Positions 56 through 8,793 of a DNA stretch of 21,876 nt are shown piece after piece. The stretch is from Planctomycetota bacterium (GTDB lineage: Bacteria > Planctomycetota > UBA1135 > GCA-002686595). Under the pieces are notes generated by a model. That model saw only the letters and a list, made by a program, of their open reading frames with translations, was not told the origin of the DNA and did no database searches. How positions within the stretch are numbered: the stretch's first letter is position 1; every line of letters starts with the position of its first letter. The position numbers and the translations under genes are program-made. Where the stretch lies: positions 1 to 21,876 of the forward strand of contig JBLHLB010000028.1 in the NCBI GenBank assembly GCA_047618505.1. Direction: 5' to 3'.

Positions 56-110
56 GGCGATCCATATGGACCTTCGTTGTAGGGAAACCAAGAGCAGGGG
101 AGCGCGGTCG

Positions 111-2384
111 ATGGGGTGGTTGCTCCTGGGTGCGATCCCGCTTCTCGGCTCCCTCGGTCACAGTTCCTTCGCCCCTCTTTTTCCTGGGGGCAGCGCTTCA
201 GAGGCCGGCGATCCGGTGGGCCAGGACTCGAACCGTCCCTTCCTGCACTACGATCACGTTGCGGCACCCTGGTTGAATCCCGATTTAGGTGAAGTCGAGC
301 GCGATTGCCTTGGGTGTCACGACCTGGACGCGCCCTGGAGTGACGTCAACGCCAAGGCGCTCTGCGCGAAGTGCCACTACCAGTACACGGCGACGGTTCC
401 TGAGTTTCCGGTGGACCAGAAGGTGGCAACGGACGGGACGCTTGGCTTCGGCTACGCGTCGATGGAAGTCTTCCTACACGGTGAGCATGGCACTCTGACC
501 TGTCGCGAGTGCCATGCACCCGACTCCTTCCGTCAGGGGCAGATTCTGAAGTCGATTCCGCAGTCCGCGACGATGGTGATTCGGCGCGGGATCAACGAGT
601 GTCAGCGATGCCATGAAACAGGCAGTTTGGAGACCCTTGGTCGGCCGCTAGAGGCACGCTCTGGTGACTCCGCCGGTCTTGAGGCGGACAGCTTCTTCTC
701 CGGTCTCAACGGAGATCCGAGCATGGGGCCCGATGCATTGGGCGCGTTCATCCACGGCGAGCACATGCTGGATCCGGCGGCGTCCTTTAGCCTCTCAAGC
801 CTTCACGCCGATGCCGAAGGGTGCGCGACTTGCCACGCCGCGCTCCTGCTCGAGACTACACAGCGCTCGGCGCCGGAAGAGCTGCTTCCGCAGGCGGGTT
901 GCGATGAATGCCACGTTTCCGTCGACGACAGCGCCCTCTCTTTCAGGGGTCCATCGGAGGCGCTACCGTCCCTTTCCAGTGGGGCATTTTTCCACGGCGA
1001 CCATCTCCGTACGGGTGTTGCCGGCCGCGTTTCTGCAGGCGTTGCCAGTGCGGATTCCCATGCCCAGCTCGAGATCCAGAGCTGCAGCGTCTGCCACCAA
1101 GTCGGCGGCTCCGATGGTGGCCGCGAGTTCGCCTTCGACCTAGCCCAACCAGAATATAGCTATTTGGGATGCGCGCAGTGCCACGACACCCCCGCGTGGC
1201 AAACACAAGGTCACGGCGAATGGACCAGTTGCACGGATTGTCACAGCTTCAGCGGTCCGACCAGTGACCTAAGGACAGATCGGCCGCTTGCTGCCGAGCC
1301 GGTAGCGCGTCGTAGGCCTACGAGTTTTCGAATCGAAAGCCAAACGCACCGGATGATCACCGGGCTCACAAAGGCAGACCTGGATCAAGCCTGCGTCGAA
1401 TGCCATCGCGCCCCGGTCGAGTCCCTTCCCTCGCGCATTCGCGACACAGCCTTCCGTCACTCTACACATCTACCCGCGGAGTTCGACAGCGACGATTGCT
1501 TGCGTTGCCACAGTGAACCCGTGGCCCAGGCAAGTCGTTCCTGGGAGCTGGGTGGGGCCCTAGCGGGCAATTCGATCCAGCCTGCGGAGGACGGGGAAGC
1601 ACACCCGCGCTTCGGTCTGACCTACGATCCCGATAGCTGCAACGGGTGCCATGAGGGAGCAGTGATCACTCCTGTCCTCGCCCCGATCGAGACCAGTTTG
1701 ACTGTGGAATTCTCCCACGCCGGTCACCTCACACCTGAATTACTGGATCCTCTTGGGGAGCACGCAATTTCCTGTGGCGATTGCCACGGAGTACAGGGTG
1801 GGGCTGACCTTGGAGAGCCCGTGGATCCGTCGCGCTTCTTCGCCAAGCCCGCTGAGTGCTCCAGCTGTCACGACCATGGGGAGAACGCAGCGATTACAGC
1901 AAACTTCGGTGGTCTTGCTTCGAGCAGCGCGACGAGCTGTGCCCAATGTCACGGCGGGGGCCAAGGTGGGGGCATCCCATTCATCCGCAGCGGCGAACTC
2001 TTGGCGAGCTCAAGCCTCGCCCAGCGCGTCGCAACCGTCAGCGGAATCCAGGCACACCCGAACGACAGAAACTGCGAGACATGTCACGTCACCATGGGGA
2101 ATGAGTTGCGGAGCCCTGACGTTGCCCTAGGTCTTGTCTCCGTCGCCGGTATCAAGAAGAGGATGCACGGCGGAGACTATCCCCAGGTGGATCCCAATGC
2201 ACCAGCCGTGTCGGCGGACGGATCCAAGGAGCAGCAGACTTGCCTTTCCTGTCACTGGACTCTGATCGCCAGCTCGATGACGCAGGACCCCTTCAGCCCC
2301 GAGATTCGCGACGTCTTCGGCAGTCTGCTAGGGACTACACCGCCACGCACCTTCCCCGGCAGACCCGCGTCTGAGCTTCGATGA
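111..2384 (+). CDS. Secreted multiheme cytochrome c with 17 CxxCH motifs, built from c3/c7-type domains
   Basis: The ORF track gives 66..2384. I prefer the ATG at 111 (MGWLLLGAIPLLGSLGHSSFA, a Sec-type signal peptide) because GGGGAG lies 8 nt upstream. I count 17 CxxCH motifs: CLGCH, CAKCH, CRECH, CQRCH, CATCH, CDECH, CSVCH, CAQCH, CTDCH, CVECH, CLRCH, CNGCH, CGDCH, CSSCH, CAQCH, CETCH, CLSCH. F-x-H-x-x-H motifs recur before heme sites (FLHGEH, FIHGEH, FFHGDH, FRHSTH, FSHAGH), as in cytochrome c3/c7 distal His ligands. Confidence 0.9.
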   Translation: MGWLLLGAIPLLGSLGHSSFAPLFPGGSASEAGDPVGQDSNRPFLHYDHVAAPWLNPDLGEVERDCLGCHDLDAPWSDVNAKALCAKCHYQYTATVPEFPVDQKVATDGTLGFGYASMEVFLHGEHGTLTCRECHAPDSFRQGQILKSIPQSATMVIRRGINECQRCHETGSLETLGRPLEARSGDSAGLEADSFFSGLNGDPSMGPDALGAFIHGEHMLDPAASFSLSSLHADAEGCATCHAALLLETTQRSAPEELLPQAGCDECHVSVDDSALSFRGPSEALPSLSSGAFFHGDHLRTGVAGRVSAGVASADSHAQLEIQSCSVCHQVGGSDGGREFAFDLAQPEYSYLGCAQCHDTPAWQTQGHGEWTSCTDCHSFSGPTSDLRTDRPLAAEPVARRRPTSFRIESQTHRMITGLTKADLDQACVECHRAPVESLPSRIRDTAFRHSTHLPAEFDSDDCLRCHSEPVAQASRSWELGGALAGNSIQPAEDGEAHPRFGLTYDPDSCNGCHEGAVITPVLAPIETSLTVEFSHAGHLTPELLDPLGEHAISCGDCHGVQGGADLGEPVDPSRFFAKPAECSSCHDHGENAAITANFGGLASSSATSCAQCHGGGQGGGIPFIRSGELLASSSLAQRVATVSGIQAHPNDRNCETCHVTMGNELRSPDVALGLVSVAGIKKRMHGGDYPQVDPNAPAVSADGSKEQQTCLSCHWTLIASSMTQDPFSPEIRDVFGSLLGTTPPRTFPGRPASELR

Positions 2385-3454
2385 ACGCAAGCCTCTTCAG
2401 AACGCGTTATCTCCTCTATGGCGCCATCATCAGTGCGGGCTTTATCGCCTGGTGGCAGGTCGGCGGCTTTGCCCTCGGGCGCGGTGGCGATGGCAATGTG
2501 AGCTACCTGCTTTGGTCCGGTTGGGTTGCGGTTGCGCTCTATCTGGCGGTGATTGCCTACGTCGGTCGCAAGTACATCCAACGCGTCAAGCGTCCCCCCA
2601 CGCGCGATGAAGTCGCCGCTTACGAGGCGTCCATCGACCGGGCCGAAACGCGTATCAAGAAGGTCGAGCGCGAAATCCTAAGTGGTGTGCTCAAGGCCGA
2701 AGGCGACATACGCAAGCGTGTGCAGGCGATCTGCAGGGATGAGGGCGTCACAAAGTTCAAGCACCCCGTGCTGATCGCCGGTGAAGGGGGCGCTCCAGCC
2801 TTTCGTGTGGAGTTAGTCTCTAACGAGCCCGCCGGCCGCGTCATTGTTTGGCTGCACGCGCACCTCTACTTCGGCCTCGCAGCCGCGGTCCTTGTGATTC
2901 TCCATGGCGGACTTGTCTGGAGCACGCCCATGGGCTTGCTCCTGAACGGCCTGAGTTTTCTGGTGACGATCACCGGTGTCATCGGCGTGTACTACTGGGC
3001 CGTAGGGCCATCCATGCTGACTCGAGCAGAGGGGAATTTCACGATCGAGGAGGCCTTCGCGCTCGAGCGACACTTTGCCCTCAAATTGGAAGACGCCTTC
3101 ACTCCGCCGGTGAAGAACCCGGAGAAGGAAATCGATAAGGCCTACGAGAAGGACAAGGTCGTCTTTGACGAAGTCGTCAAGCTTCAGGGCTTCGCCAAGT
3201 CCTGTGCCAAGGAGCCCAGCCCCGCTAAGGTCGAGCAGCAGTTGACCGCCGTCCTCTCCGAGGACGCCAAGGTCGCGGGCCTCCAACGGGACGTCGCCGT
3301 CCTCATCGCCCAACGCGGAAAGGCCGGCGATGAGCTGCGCCGCCTATCGCGTATCCGCTTCCTGATCAATTCCTGGCGCGTCGTGCACGTGCCCGCTTCC
3401 ATCGCCCTGGTGGGAGTTCTCGTCGTTCACATCTTCACCGTGTGGATGTACTGA
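2381..3454 (+). CDS. Integral membrane protein with about 5 TM helices; putative di-heme b-type transmembrane electron carrier
   Basis: The ATG overlaps the upstream stop (ATGA at 2381-2384). Hydrophobic segments sit at about aa 10-32, 43-63, 153-180, 184-209 and 333-357. Both intervening loops (aa 64-150 and 210-330) are K/R-rich, so they should be cytoplasmic. H161/H175 in TM3 and H336/H350 in TM5 are each exactly 14 residues apart in helices of the same orientation, which is the classic bis-His spacing for two stacked b hemes. Confidence 0.75.
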   Translation: MNASLFRTRYLLYGAIISAGFIAWWQVGGFALGRGGDGNVSYLLWSGWVAVALYLAVIAYVGRKYIQRVKRPPTRDEVAAYEASIDRAETRIKKVEREILSGVLKAEGDIRKRVQAICRDEGVTKFKHPVLIAGEGGAPAFRVELVSNEPAGRVIVWLHAHLYFGLAAAVLVILHGGLVWSTPMGLLLNGLSFLVTITGVIGVYYWAVGPSMLTRAEGNFTIEEAFALERHFALKLEDAFTPPVKNPEKEIDKAYEKDKVVFDEVVKLQGFAKSCAKEPSPAKVEQQLTAVLSEDAKVAGLQRDVAVLIAQRGKAGDELRRLSRIRFLINSWRVVHVPASIALVGVLVVHIFTVWMY

Positions 3455-3457
3455 GCC

Positions 3458-4963
3458 ATGGCAGCCCAAACAGATAACAGCGACGTCCTGGCCCAGTTGG
3501 GGCGACTCGCTCCCTTTGCCGACCTCGGCGAAGAGACCAAGCAGAACAAGAAGCAGCGTGCCGCGCTCCTGGAGTTCCACCGCTTCGAAGACTACTCCCG
3601 CGGCGAAGTGATCATCGAGCAGGGGGAATTCACCGGCGAATTCTGTGTCGTCATCTCCGGCTCCGTGGCCGTCTTCCGCTCCGAGGATGGGTCCATCAAT
3701 CGCCTGGGCAATCTGGGCTCGGGGGAGTGGTTCGGCGAAATGAGCGCCCTCTCCTTCCAGGCCGCAGTGGCGCAGGTGCGCTCGGAGTCCCGCGCCTTGG
3801 TCCTGGTGATCGACCAAGCGCTCTTCAAAACGCTCTATGAAGCGGCCAAGGGCAAGAGCGCCTTCAAGGCGGCGATCGACGAAAAGTACCGCCAGCGCGC
3901 CCTCTCCCTGCACCTGCGCGTGGCGCCGCTCCTGGCAGAGTTGAGCGTCGCCGACCTAGAGTCCATTGGCCAACGAGCGGAGCTCGTGCGTTTCGAAGAA
4001 GGCGACGTGGTCGCCGAGCAGGGAGTGAAGGCCGATGCCGTCTACCTGATTCGAAGCGGCGCGGTGAAAGAAGTACGCCGGGATGAGAAAGGCTCTGAGC
4101 GCGTGCATTCCTACTATCGCGGCAACTCCTCGGTCGGGGAAAACTGCCTCGCACGGGAGGACGTTTCCTGGCGCGGGACCCTGACGGCCATGACGCCCAC
4201 GGATGTGGTCAAGATTCCCGTGGGCGTGTTCCTGGAGATCTTCGGCGCAACGGGGGCAGCGGCCGCGAACGAGAGTCAGACCCTGAGCAGGCTGCGCCTG
4301 GCGGCGGATCGAATCGCCGCGGAGGATCGCGGTGTCGAAACAGGGGGCTCCAGCGACGAACTTGACGTGATGGTCGGCGCCGAAAGCGCCAAGGGCGGCA
4401 AGGCGCTGGTGATCGACCTGGACAAGTGCACTCGCTGCAATGCATGCGTGGAATCCTGTGTCGCTGCCCACGAAGACGGTATTCCGCGGCTCTCCAAGAA
4501 GGGCAATCGCATCTCGTCGAACAAGGTGTTGTCGTCGGCCTGCTACAGCTGCGAGATCCCGGACTGCATGCAGTCCTGTGACTTCGGTGCAATCCGTCGC
4601 GACGTGAACGGATCGATCCGCTTCATCTACGATAACTGTACGGGCTGCACGCTCTGCGTTCCCGCCTGTCCCTATGACGTCATTCGCATGACGCCTCCGC
4701 CTAACCAGCCGGATTCGCGTCCCCCGGGCTTCCTGGAGAGCATTCCATTTCTGGGCAAGCTCCTGGCGCCGAAACGTCCCGAGGAAATCGACGCTGGCGA
4801 GAAGGTCTTGGCGGCACGCACCCAGGGAGCGGTGGCCGGCAAAGCCATCAAATGCGATCTGTGTGCGGGCTTGCCCTATGAGGCCTGTGTCTACAACTGT
4901 CCCTGCGGCGCCATCGATCGCTTCGATCCGGCTGCCCTCTTTGCTGGCGAGGAATCCAAGTAG
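3458..4963 (+). CDS. Cytoplasmic fusion protein: two tandem cNMP-binding (CAP-effector-like) domains plus a C-terminal four-cluster [4Fe-4S] ferredoxin domain (NrfC/PsrB/HybA-like)
   Basis: There is a 3-nt gap after the upstream stop and no signal peptide. cNMP-like domains cover aa ~18-130 (GEWFGEMSAL...) and aa ~150-262 (VGENCLAREDVSWRGTLTAM). Four Cys clusters follow: C324-x2-C-x2-C-x3-C, C362-x2-C-x4-C-x3-C, C394-x2-C-x2-C-x3-CP, C466-x2-C-x7-C-x3-CP. Confidence 0.9.
   Translation: MAAQTDNSDVLAQLGRLAPFADLGEETKQNKKQRAALLEFHRFEDYSRGEVIIEQGEFTGEFCVVISGSVAVFRSEDGSINRLGNLGSGEWFGEMSALSFQAAVAQVRSESRALVLVIDQALFKTLYEAAKGKSAFKAAIDEKYRQRALSLHLRVAPLLAELSVADLESIGQRAELVRFEEGDVVAEQGVKADAVYLIRSGAVKEVRRDEKGSERVHSYYRGNSSVGENCLAREDVSWRGTLTAMTPTDVVKIPVGVFLEIFGATGAAAANESQTLSRLRLAADRIAAEDRGVETGGSSDELDVMVGAESAKGGKALVIDLDKCTRCNACVESCVAAHEDGIPRLSKKGNRISSNKVLSSACYSCEIPDCMQSCDFGAIRRDVNGSIRFIYDNCTGCTLCVPACPYDVIRMTPPPNQPDSRPPGFLESIPFLGKLLAPKRPEEIDAGEKVLAARTQGAVAGKAIKCDLCAGLPYEACVYNCPCGAIDRFDPAALFAGEESK
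3509..3847 (+). other. cNMP-binding-like domain 1 of the ferredoxin fusion protein
   Basis: Beta-roll signature G-x-GE-x-FGE-x-AL. The canonical phosphate-binding Arg appears to be replaced (SFQAAVAQV). Confidence 0.6.
3905..4243 (+). other. cNMP-binding-like domain 2 of the ferredoxin fusion protein
   Basis: FEEGDVVAEQG...YLIRSGAV...VGENCLA...WRGTLTA pattern, with an Arg present in the putative phosphate-binding cassette. Confidence 0.6.
4400..4927 (+). other. 4x[4Fe-4S] ferredoxin domain (16 Cys in four cluster motifs)
   Basis: CTRCNACVESC / CYSCEIPDCMQSC / CTGCTLCVPACP / CDLCAGLPYEACVYNCP. Confidence 0.85.
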
Positions 4964-4969
4964 GTCGCC

Positions 4970-7141
4970 ATGGCAAAGGAAGCAGATCCTGAAGGCGGCG
5001 CGGGCGTGATGCGATTTAGCATTCCTGGCAAACGCAAGAGCGATGCAGCCCGCTTGGCGAGCGTCGCCGATCGCATCACGGTAGGCTCCGCTCGTTCCTC
5101 TGACCTGTCTATCGACGATCCTGTAGCGTCGGATGAACATTGCGTCCTTACCTTCAAGGACGGGCGCTTCTTTGCGGAGGACGCGAATAGCTCGACTGGT
5201 ACCTACTTGAATGGGCTGTCCGTGCAGGCACCCGTTGAGATCGCCGAGGGCGACTCGCTGGTCTTGGGCGTCAGTCGCATCACATTCAAGATCGAGACGA
5301 GCGACGCCGGGCCGACCCTGGTGATGTCCCTAGCCGAGAAGTCCTTCTATTTCGTTGAGAAGGGCAAGCCGGCCAAGAACGGCAAGAAGCGCACCCTCGC
5401 GGATCTTTATCAGTGGGTGCGATCCGAGGTCGTCTTCGGCCGCTCCCGGATGTTGACCTGGGGGAACTTCGCGGCCGGTGGACTAACTCTTGTGCTCTTC
5501 GGTGTGGTCTTCGCAGCCAGCGTGCGCGAGCCCCTGTCGGATCCCGGACACCTGCATGCCTCGCACCAGATGTTGTTTGATGAGGGGCTGAGTGCCGAGC
5601 AGCGGGATCTGCTGAACGCTTCCTACCCGGACGCTCTGACTCTGGCGACGGCCCAAGGCTGCGATGTTTGCCACTCGTCCTTTGGGGGGACGCCGGCGGA
5701 AAAGTGCGCCCAATGCCACGGCGACATCGTCGGTGAACAGCAACATCCAGGGCTCAGCGCCGGACTCAGCGATCCCCAGGCCTGGTGGGCGGACACCGGC
5801 TGTGTGCGTTGCCACACGGATCACACTCGCGATGCCGCCTGGGACTTCATCCCATCGGTGCAGAAGACCCAGGCTTCCTGTGGTGAGTGCCACGCCGAGG
5901 ATCGCCACCCGGCGGGGGATATGCCAATCGCTCCAGTCGAGGGACAGCGGCAGACATCTATCGCCTACAACGACTTCTCCCACGCGGATCACCTGAAGCG
6001 CGTGGACGGCGGAGCAGCGGTTGCCTGCTCGCTTTGCCATGTCGAAGTGACAGAGGGCGCTGGGGTCTCGGTGGCCGCGAGCCTAGGGCGTAACTTTGCC
6101 CCCGCCGATTACGACGTTTGCACACGCTGCCACATCGCTGGGCAAGTCGACGCATCGATCCCAGAGGAGTTCCTGCCCGTAGCCATGACCTTGGCCTGGC
6201 ACGGCACGGATGACGGCGAGGAGAACTGCACCCAGTGTCACGCAGAGCTGTACCAGGATACCTTGGCGACCGTGGAGTTGCAGCGCGCGGTCAATCAGCT
6301 CTTCAGCTTGCCGACACGGGTCACCCACGGCGAGTTCATCAAGGGTCACGTAGAATTCGAAGTGGAGGCGGCGGGCAGTGTCGAGGCCTGCATCGATTGC
6401 CACCGCGATTCAAACGTGACGCCCCAGGCAATCCCCGCCCAGCCCTTCCTGCATGGGTTGCACCTGTCGGAGCTGCAGCCGGCGACGCCCGCCGATGCGC
6501 GTCGTTTGAGCGCGGCTGCTGGTGAGTGCCTGTCCTGTCACCAGGGCATCGACCAGGTCAGCACCCTGAGCGGCGATGCCTTTGCTGGGGCCGAGGGCCA
6601 ATGCGCCGATTGCCACACCAACGGCGTACCCGCGGCCTTCCGGGAGCCGGCTTCCCTGGACACCGCCGTGGAGTTTCCCCACGACGTTCACACCAGGGCC
6701 TTCTCCACCTCCAAGACACTGGAGATGGGCTGCTTCGCTTGCCATGAGTTCGCCGAATCAGATCTCTTTGCGGCGGAGATTAGCACCAATAGCGACGCCC
6801 AGAGTTGCATGGACTGCCACGCTAAGCACAACAACATGGCGGGAGCCGTGGAGGGCTGTGCCGTCTGCCACGAGGTCGGTGTCGATTCGCATGAGGGCAG
6901 TTATTGGGGCAAGACGATTTCGAAGAAGTGGCCCGCCGCAAACACCTTCGACCACTTCAGCACAGGCCACGCCGCGGGGGCAGCCATGGACCTCACCGGC
7001 ACCGCCGGCTGCACCGAGTGCCATGCTGTCGATGGTCTTTGGGACGCAACCTCGATCCTTGACGTCACCATTCCCACCGAGGCCCAGGCCGAGTGCCGTG
7101 AGTGCCACGTGAACGGGAAGCAACGGTTTCATTGGCGATGA
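4970..7141 (+). CDS. N-terminal cytoplasmic FHA domain, one TM helix, then a periplasmic multiheme cytochrome c with 15 CxxCH motifs
   Basis: There is a 6-nt gap after the upstream stop. FHA signature at aa ~13-105: ITVGSARSSDLSIDDPVASDEHCVL...DANSSTGTYLNG...GDSLVLG. TM helix at aa ~163-185 (WGNFAAGGLTLVLFGVVFAASV). I count 15 CxxCH: CDVCH, CAQCH, CVRCH, CGECH, CSLCH, CTRCH, CTQCH, CIDCH, CLSCH, CADCH, CFACH, CMDCH, CAVCH, CTECH, CRECH. F-x-H-x-x-H motifs also present: FSHADH, FLHGLH, FPHDVH. Confidence 0.9.
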   Translation: MAKEADPEGGAGVMRFSIPGKRKSDAARLASVADRITVGSARSSDLSIDDPVASDEHCVLTFKDGRFFAEDANSSTGTYLNGLSVQAPVEIAEGDSLVLGVSRITFKIETSDAGPTLVMSLAEKSFYFVEKGKPAKNGKKRTLADLYQWVRSEVVFGRSRMLTWGNFAAGGLTLVLFGVVFAASVREPLSDPGHLHASHQMLFDEGLSAEQRDLLNASYPDALTLATAQGCDVCHSSFGGTPAEKCAQCHGDIVGEQQHPGLSAGLSDPQAWWADTGCVRCHTDHTRDAAWDFIPSVQKTQASCGECHAEDRHPAGDMPIAPVEGQRQTSIAYNDFSHADHLKRVDGGAAVACSLCHVEVTEGAGVSVAASLGRNFAPADYDVCTRCHIAGQVDASIPEEFLPVAMTLAWHGTDDGEENCTQCHAELYQDTLATVELQRAVNQLFSLPTRVTHGEFIKGHVEFEVEAAGSVEACIDCHRDSNVTPQAIPAQPFLHGLHLSELQPATPADARRLSAAAGECLSCHQGIDQVSTLSGDAFAGAEGQCADCHTNGVPAAFREPASLDTAVEFPHDVHTRAFSTSKTLEMGCFACHEFAESDLFAAEISTNSDAQSCMDCHAKHNNMAGAVEGCAVCHEVGVDSHEGSYWGKTISKKWPAANTFDHFSTGHAAGAAMDLTGTAGCTECHAVDGLWDATSILDVTIPTEAQAECRECHVNGKQRFHWR
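5006..5290 (+). other. FHA (phosphothreonine-binding) domain of the cytochrome fusion
   Basis: G-x-x-R ... S-x-x-H ... N-S-S-T-G-T-x-L-N-G ... G-D-x-L pattern typical of FHA domains. Confidence 0.7.
5456..5524 (+). other. Single transmembrane anchor separating the cytoplasmic FHA domain from the periplasmic heme domain
   Basis: A 23-residue hydrophobic stretch preceded by a K/R-rich segment (KGKPAKNGKKR...GRSR). The first CxxCH is at aa 231, after the helix. Confidence 0.7.
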
Positions 7142-8793
7142 CCTCCAAGGGACCCCCCATTCGACTGGAATATACAGTCGCAGGTGTCGGTTCATCCTTC
7201 GCCTTCGATCCTGGAGTGATTCAGGTGGGGCGCGAGCCGAAGTGTGACCTGGTAATCGATGACGAGTGGATGTCCCGTTCCCATGCGACGCTCTCGTTTG
7301 AAGAGGGGCGCTGGATCGTGCGCGACACCAAGAGCGCGAACGGCACCAGGGTCAACTCCCGGCGCATCAGGGAGGAAGCCCTAACCGATGGGGATCACAT
7401 CCGCTTCGGTCGTATCGATGTGCTCTGCAGTATCCCCGAAGAGGCGGGCAACAGGATCGACTTCGTGGACGTGGATATGGAGGGACTGATGACCCAATCC
7501 ATCGCGGTGGGGGACTTCGATCAGCTCCTGCGCTCCGTCTTGCAACCGGAGGAAAAGCCCGCCGATGGAACGGCGAAGATTACCCGTTCTCCCGCCGCCG
7601 CTGGTCAGGACCAGGACGAGCCTTCGGCGCTCGGGGACGTTGCTTGGATTCTGCAGGTCGTCAAGGGCACTACTGAGGCGTTGGTTTCCGTCGACGAACT
7701 CAATCAGGTCTTGGACCGAATTCTGGTGCTGGTTTCAGAGCACCTCAAGATGGACTACGGCGTCATTTACCTTTGCGAAGAGGGGCTTGAGGATCTCGAG
7801 AAGATGGCCGAGCACTGCGGTCGTCTGCACGGCGAAACCCAGCCCGTGCAGATCAGCCTGAGTGTTGCGCGCACAGCGGTCGAGAGGCGCGAAGCCGTGT
7901 TGATCACGAACGCTGGGGACGACGAGCGTTTCGCGGGGATCCAGAGCATTGTTTCCAGTGGAACGCAGTCCGCCGTTTGCGCTCCCTTGATCCACCAGGG
8001 CAAGGTACTGGGGCTGATTTACGTTCTTCAGACTGCGCTCGGCGAGACCTACAACACCACGCACCTGGGGGTCCTCTCGATCCTGGCGGGACTCTCGGCG
8101 GCAGCCGTGGACCGCGCGCGTTTACGCGAGGGTATGGAGCTTGAGAAGCAAAAGCGCGTGCGGCTCTCTCGCTACCACGCGCCGGCAGTTGTTGAACGAA
8201 TCATCCGTGATGGCTCAGGAGAAATGACCTCCTACGAGCGCGAGATCACGGTGCTCTTTGGCGACATCGTTGGCTTCACCGCCTTGGCCGAACGCCTTTC
8301 CGCAGGCGAGGTTACGCGGATCCTGAACGAGATCTTCCAGGGGATCACTGACGCTGTCTTTGATCAGGGTGGCACCCTGGACAAGTTTATCGGAGATGCC
8401 GCGATGGCATTTTTTGGGGCACCTAACGAACAGACGGACCATGCGGAGCGTGCCGTGCGTGCTGGGCTTGCCATGCAGGCCGGTCTGCGTGACTACAACG
8501 CGGGCAGGGCCCCGGCGGACTGTTTGGGCATGCGTATTGGCATTAACAGCGGCGTCGCCATTGTCGGCGACGTGGGGGCCCTTCAACGCAAGGACTTCAC
8601 CTGTATCGGAGACGCGGTCAACGTCGCCAGCCGCCTGGAGTCCACCGTGGCTGAGGAGGGCCAGGTCGTGATTGGCCCGCGAACCTTTGAGTTGCTGGCG
8701 GGATGCATGGAGACCAAAACACTGCCGCCCAAGCCTCTCAAGAACAAGCTGACTCCGATCCAGCCGTACCTTGTTGTTGATCCAGAAGCCTGA
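7138..8793 (+). CDS. FHA - GAF - class III adenylate cyclase (CHD domain)
   Basis: The ORF track gives 7102..8793. The ATG at 7138 overlaps the upstream stop as ATGA, so I prefer it. FHA: VGREPKCDLVIDDEWMSRSHATL...SANGTRVN...GDHIRFG. GAF at aa ~195-340. Cyclase domain: VLFGDIVGFTAL...KFIGDAAMAFFGAP...MRIGINSGVAIVGDVG...CIGDAVNVASRLES. Confidence 0.9.
   Translation: MTSKGPPIRLEYTVAGVGSSFAFDPGVIQVGREPKCDLVIDDEWMSRSHATLSFEEGRWIVRDTKSANGTRVNSRRIREEALTDGDHIRFGRIDVLCSIPEEAGNRIDFVDVDMEGLMTQSIAVGDFDQLLRSVLQPEEKPADGTAKITRSPAAAGQDQDEPSALGDVAWILQVVKGTTEALVSVDELNQVLDRILVLVSEHLKMDYGVIYLCEEGLEDLEKMAEHCGRLHGETQPVQISLSVARTAVERREAVLITNAGDDERFAGIQSIVSSGTQSAVCAPLIHQGKVLGLIYVLQTALGETYNTTHLGVLSILAGLSAAAVDRARLREGMELEKQKRVRLSRYHAPAVVERIIRDGSGEMTSYEREITVLFGDIVGFTALAERLSAGEVTRILNEIFQGITDAVFDQGGTLDKFIGDAAMAFFGAPNEQTDHAERAVRAGLAMQAGLRDYNAGRAPADCLGMRIGINSGVAIVGDVGALQRKDFTCIGDAVNVASRLESTVAEEGQVVIGPRTFELLAGCMETKTLPPKPLKNKLTPIQPYLVVDPEA
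7213..7425 (+). other. FHA domain of the cyclase
   Basis: Canonical GR...SRxH...NGT.VN...GD motifs. Confidence 0.8.
7684..8121 (+). other. GAF domain
   Basis: The region between the FHA and cyclase domains has a GAF-like pattern (LDRILVLVSEHLKMDYGVIYL...KVLGLIYV). Confidence 0.55.
8239..8736 (+). other. Class III nucleotidyl cyclase catalytic domain; the Lys/Thr specificity pair suggests a class IIIb adenylyl cyclase
   Basis: Metal-binding Asp in FGDIVGFT. Substrate-specifying Lys in DKFIGD. Thr at the position of the second specificity residue (DFTCIGDAVN). Transition-state Asn and Arg in VNVASR. Confidence 0.75.

What the first reader, a model, noticed from the sequence alone, without database searches (positions are those of the whole stretch)
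7138..8793. FHA-GAF-adenylate cyclase as the last gene of the cytochrome operon; Lys/Thr specificity pair
The cyclase is translationally coupled (ATGA overlap) to the FHA-cytochrome gene, so cAMP synthesis is co-expressed with its apparent receptor, the cNMP-ferredoxin. The catalytic domain has the Lys of adenine specificity (DKFIGD), but a Thr where class IIIa enzymes have Asp (FTCIGDAVN). To my recollection that matches the class IIIb subgroup of adenylyl cyclases. The FHA and GAF modules imply dual control, by phospho-Thr and by a small ligand that could be a cyclic nucleotide (feedback) or a redox signal.
Basis: partly seen in the sequence, partly recalled or inferred. Interest (0 to 1): 0.55.

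Follow-up and report, generated by a model that had tools for sequence, protein, structure and literature searches.

The report
FHA-GAF class IIIb adenylyl cyclase
This gene encodes an apparently active but otherwise ordinary cAMP-making enzyme with two sensor domains; in one planctomycete lineage it is attached to the end of a conserved, uncharacterised cytochrome gene cluster, and the neighbouring "cAMP receptor" lacks the residue that normally binds cyclic nucleotides.

Summary
ORF 7138-8793 (+) encodes a soluble 551-aa FHA-GAF-cyclase. Its ATG overlaps the TGA of the FHA-multihaem cytochrome gene (ATGA). It is the last of five tightly packed + strand genes.

All class III catalytic residues are present and invariant or nearly so in 36 homologues: D376, D420, R484, N495, R499, and the Lys416/Thr488 pair. 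The best solved relatives are class IIIb enzymes (CyaB, Cya2, CyaC). It is therefore most likely an active class IIIb adenylyl cyclase.

The enzyme is not unusual. The exact protein is already auto-annotated "adenylate cyclase", and the FHA-GAF-cyclase architecture occurs in at least six phyla in varied contexts.

The upstream genes belong to a cluster conserved in more than 20 Planctomycetota loci: FHA proteins, two multihaem cytochromes, a four-His membrane protein and a cNMP-domain ferredoxin. The cyclase follows this cluster only in the window and two syntenic relatives, so it is a lineage-specific add-on.

The "apparent receptor" claim is weak. Both cNMP-like domains of the ferredoxin lack the canonical phosphate-binding Arg (Ala103, Trp238). 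The GAF lacks the NKFDE motif, and its ligand is undetermined.

Novelty: new member of a known kind. Interest is modest.

The parts
7138..8793 (+). Complete ORF for the FHA-GAF-class IIIb adenylyl cyclase (551 aa, soluble).
   Evidence: No TM-like segment was found. The exact protein, P0001, is annotated 'adenylate cyclase [Planctomycetota bacterium]'.
7138..7141 (+). ATGA start/stop overlap with the FHA-cytochrome gene.
   Evidence: The identical TGGCGATGA junction is present in L089.
7222..7410 (+). FHA domain (residues 29-91) with the canonical pThr-binding set G31 R32 S46 R47 H49 N68 G69.
   Evidence: Pfam E 2.4e-19. These residues are invariant in 36 homologues.
7411..7695 (+). Variable Ser/Thr/Pro-rich linker (residues 92-186). 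It is probably disordered.
   Evidence: This is a gap-rich, unconserved block of alignment A1.
7696..8106 (+). GAF domain (residues 187-323). It contains an invariant Cys281 in the S-A-x-C-A-P-L motif and has no NKFDE motif.
   Evidence: Pfam E 4.4e-15. The model has pLDDT 87.9. The Foldseek hit list is generic for GAF domains.
8155..8223 (+). End of the long GAF C-terminal helix plus the cyclase-transducer-element region. LSRY 343-346 and P349 are here.
   Evidence: The model helix spans protein residues 307-339. LSRY aligns with the FGRY motif of Cya2, which PMC5995499 names as the CTE motif. P349 is invariant.
8239..8706 (+). Class III cyclase catalytic domain (residues 368-523). Key codons: D376 (8263-8265), K416 (8383-8385), D420 (8395-8397), R484 (8587-8589), T488 (8599-8601), N495 (8620-8622), R499 (8632-8634).
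   Evidence: Pfam E 4.6e-26.
4970..7141 (+). Upstream gene coupled to the cyclase. It encodes an N-terminal FHA domain, one TM segment (residues 164-186) and a domain with 15 CxxCH motifs.
3458..4963 (+). Protein with two CNB-like domains and a 4Fe-4S ferredoxin module, the proposed cAMP receptor. Its phosphate-binding cassettes lack the canonical Arg: Ala103 at nt 3764-3766 and Trp238 at nt 4169-4171.
2381..3454 (+). Membrane protein with no Pfam match. It has four invariant TM histidines (H161, H175, H336, H350), a pattern like that of a di-haem cytochrome b.
66..2384 (+). Multihaem cytochrome with 17 CxxCH motifs. It is the first complete gene of the cluster in the window.

Best explanation
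The gene encodes a soluble, homodimer-type class IIIb adenylyl cyclase that converts ATP to cAMP.

Shown here:
- Every catalytic residue is present on one chain: metal-binding D376 and D420, phosphate-binding R484, transition-state N495 and R499, and the adenine pair K416/T488.
- The FHA domain keeps the canonical phospho-Thr-binding residues.
- A single generic GAF domain has a long C-terminal helix that runs into a cyclase-transducer element (LSRY...P) just before the catalytic core.
- The gene has a 4-nt overlap with the FHA-cytochrome gene.

Inferred:
- The enzyme is docked or switched by a phospho-Thr on a partner. Candidates are the giant Ser/Thr kinase that neighbours this cluster in relatives, a phosphorylated cluster protein, or the cyclase's own Ser/Thr-rich linker, as in GarA-type autoinhibition.
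- The GAF domain integrates an unknown small ligand or redox cue and transmits it through the helix and CTE to the active-site dimer.
- As a class IIIb enzyme, it may also respond to bicarbonate or CO2.
- In this lineage it supplies cAMP alongside an FHA-rich transmembrane electron-transfer complex (cytoplasmic Fe-S protein, four-His membrane protein, periplasmic multihaem cytochromes). That would link Ser/Thr-kinase signalling on the complex to cAMP.

Whether the adjacent CNB-ferredoxin is the cAMP target is open and, on sequence, doubtful.
For: Domain and residue evidence:
- Residue-level alignments to class IIIb structures are: CyaB 3r5g (E 3.6e-31, 112 bits), Cya2 2w01/6fht and CyaC 1wc0 (102 bits).
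- K416 aligns with Cya2 E488. The single E488K change turns that enzyme into an adenylyl cyclase (PMC5995499).
- D376, K416, D420, T488, N495 and R499 are invariant, and R484 is at least 90% conserved, in 36 full-length homologues. The FHA residues G31, R32, S46, R47, H49, N68 and G69 are also invariant.
- LSRY aligns with the CTE motif FGRY.
- The GAF model has pLDDT 87.9 and a terminal helix reaching the CTE.

Context evidence:
- The closest homologues, P0002 and P0003, overlap a Lactamase_B/PDEase_II (cAMP phosphodiesterase-like) gene, which fits cAMP chemistry.
- The operon is tightly packed, and the ATGA junction is conserved in L089.
- The cyclase holds the same slot in L088 and L089.
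- The cluster is rich in FHA domains. A Pkinase-FGE-sulfatase gene lies next to it in L088, L090, L092, L093, L095, L097, L098 and L099.
- Some homologues of the CNB-ferredoxin carry a fused FHA domain (P0129, P0230).
Against: - No biochemistry exists for this protein or, as far as three literature searches showed, for any FHA-GAF-cyclase.
- The cyclase is absent from about 19 of about 22 copies of the cluster. The three positive loci also share the downstream Glu_synthase-like gene, so they represent one lineage rather than independent events.
- None of 80 genome loci with FHA-GAF-cyclases has the cytochrome or CNB-ferredoxin genes nearby.
- No Ser/Thr kinase is encoded in this window. Only 12 of 82 cyclase loci have a Hanks-type kinase in the flanks, which I estimate to be about the background rate for these phyla.
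- The GAF ligand is unknown.
- The L088 copy is broken by three frameshifts. This may be error in a 6x long-read assembly, or it may be gene decay.
Confidence: 0.65

Rival explanations
1. The cyclase and the cNMP-ferredoxin form a dedicated sender-receiver pair, and cAMP made by the cyclase binds the CNB domains and gates electron flow through the Fe-S/cytochrome chain.
For: The two genes share one tight operon, and this arrangement is kept in L088 and L089. The ferredoxin matches Pfam cNMP_binding at E 1.6e-32 with two domains. The Gly-Glu of the phosphate-binding cassette is conserved in both domains.
Against: The canonical cassette Arg, and the Ser/Thr that follows it, are replaced in CNB1 by Ala103 and Val104. 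CNB2 has an invariant Trp at the Arg position. That Arg is conserved and contacts the cyclic phosphate in cAMP, cGMP and cUMP receptors (PMC11224242). Most copies of the cluster have no linked cyclase. The few family members with a canonical A-R-S-A-T cassette that were checked (P0222, P0229) have no cyclase nearby.
Confidence: 0.2
2. The cyclase is a general-purpose cAMP source that merely landed next to the cluster. It has no specific functional tie to the cytochromes.
For: The same architecture is found in Planctomycetota, Acidobacteriota, Myxococcota, Gemmatimonadota, Desulfobacteraceae and Cyanobacteria without these neighbours. The nearest homologues are in T6SS or unrelated contexts. 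The neighbour-joining tree does not resolve the cluster-linked copies as a clade.
Against: The 4-nt overlap with the FHA-cytochrome gene is conserved between genomes whose cluster proteins are only 32-53% identical. Both the cluster and the T6SS context are FHA-linked machines. GC content is uniform with the neighbouring genes.
Confidence: 0.3
3. The genes form a Pycsar-like defence pair: a pyrimidine (cCMP/cUMP) cyclase plus a CNB-domain effector.
For: PADLOC PycC models hit the catalytic domain (PDLC00734, E 2.9e-33). PycTIR and effector models hit the CNB domains of the ferredoxin.
Against: The hits reflect the shared class III and CNB folds. The specificity positions are K416/T488 with Ala after D420, as in CyaC and CyaB. 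They do not match the reported PycC sets: Y50/D94/R97, F100/R142/Q144 or F60/K104/F109 (PMC11224242). There is no TIR or pore-forming TM effector. The CNB domains lack the cassette Arg. The cluster is a conserved respiratory-type operon that usually has no cyclase.
Confidence: 0.03
4. The protein is a catalytically dead pseudo-cyclase that serves only as an FHA/GAF scaffold.
For: None specific. The frameshifted L088 copy could hint that the gene is dispensable.
Against: All seven catalytic or specificity residues are present and conserved across 36 homologues. The stitched L088 protein also retains them.
Confidence: 0.03

Closest known systems
Spirulina platensis CyaC catalytic domain (PDB 1WC0/1WC1), the archetypal bicarbonate-responsive class IIIb adenylyl cyclase
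   Same: The score is 102 bits. The motifs match closely: ITxLFxDIVGFT, GTxDKFxGDAxMAxxGAP and RxDFTxIGxxVNxAxRL. The Lys/Thr pair and all catalytic residues are the same, and even the Phe before the Thr is shared.
   Different: CyaC is a two-component hybrid. Here the regulatory modules are FHA and a single GAF. Bicarbonate response is untested for this protein.
Pseudomonas aeruginosa CyaB (PDB 3R5G)
   Same: It is the best solved-structure match (E 3.6e-31, 112 bits), aligning over residues 362-549 including the C-terminal tail.
   Different: From my own knowledge, CyaB is membrane-anchored through an N-terminal MASE2 domain. The present protein is soluble and has FHA and GAF domains.
Anabaena/Nostoc CyaB1 and CyaB2 (GAF-GAF-PAS-cyclase, activated by cAMP through NKFDE-type GAF domains)
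   Same: A GAF domain sits upstream of a class IIIb catalytic domain, connected by a helical linker and CTE. CyaB1 is named as a cyclase core in PMC5995499.
   Different: This protein has only one GAF domain, and it lacks the NKFDE motif. Only N and F are present, and the consensus after RF is xxAxSI. It has an FHA domain in place of a tandem GAF and PAS. cAMP feed-forward therefore cannot be assumed.
Uncharacterised FHA-GAF-cyclases of cultured cyanobacteria, for example Calothrix sp. NIES-3974 (542 aa)
   Same: The three-domain order is the same. The Lys/Thr pair is kept (GTLDKYIGD; RFEYTALG). Identity is 33% over residues 27-520.
   Different: There is no cytochrome or CNB-ferredoxin context. 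No function has been reported that I could find.
Leptospira Lcd1 GAF domain bound to cAMP (PDB 5W10)
   Same: It is the top Foldseek match of the GAF model (E 5.9e-8, TM 0.71) and a weak sequence match (E 0.005).
   Different: Identity is only 18%. Lcd1 has the N..K..F..DE pattern and a GIAG helix cap, whereas this family has IS..IA. GAF domains with unrelated ligands score almost equally well.
Mycobacterium tuberculosis Rv1625c and mammalian membrane cyclases (class IIIa, Lys/Asp)
   Same: They share the fold, the metal-binding Asp residues, the Asn/Arg pair, the adenine-binding Lys and the CTE.
   Different: They have Asp where this protein has Thr488. Similarity is lower: AC8 scores 84 bits and the 1yk9 cyclase chain 59 bits.

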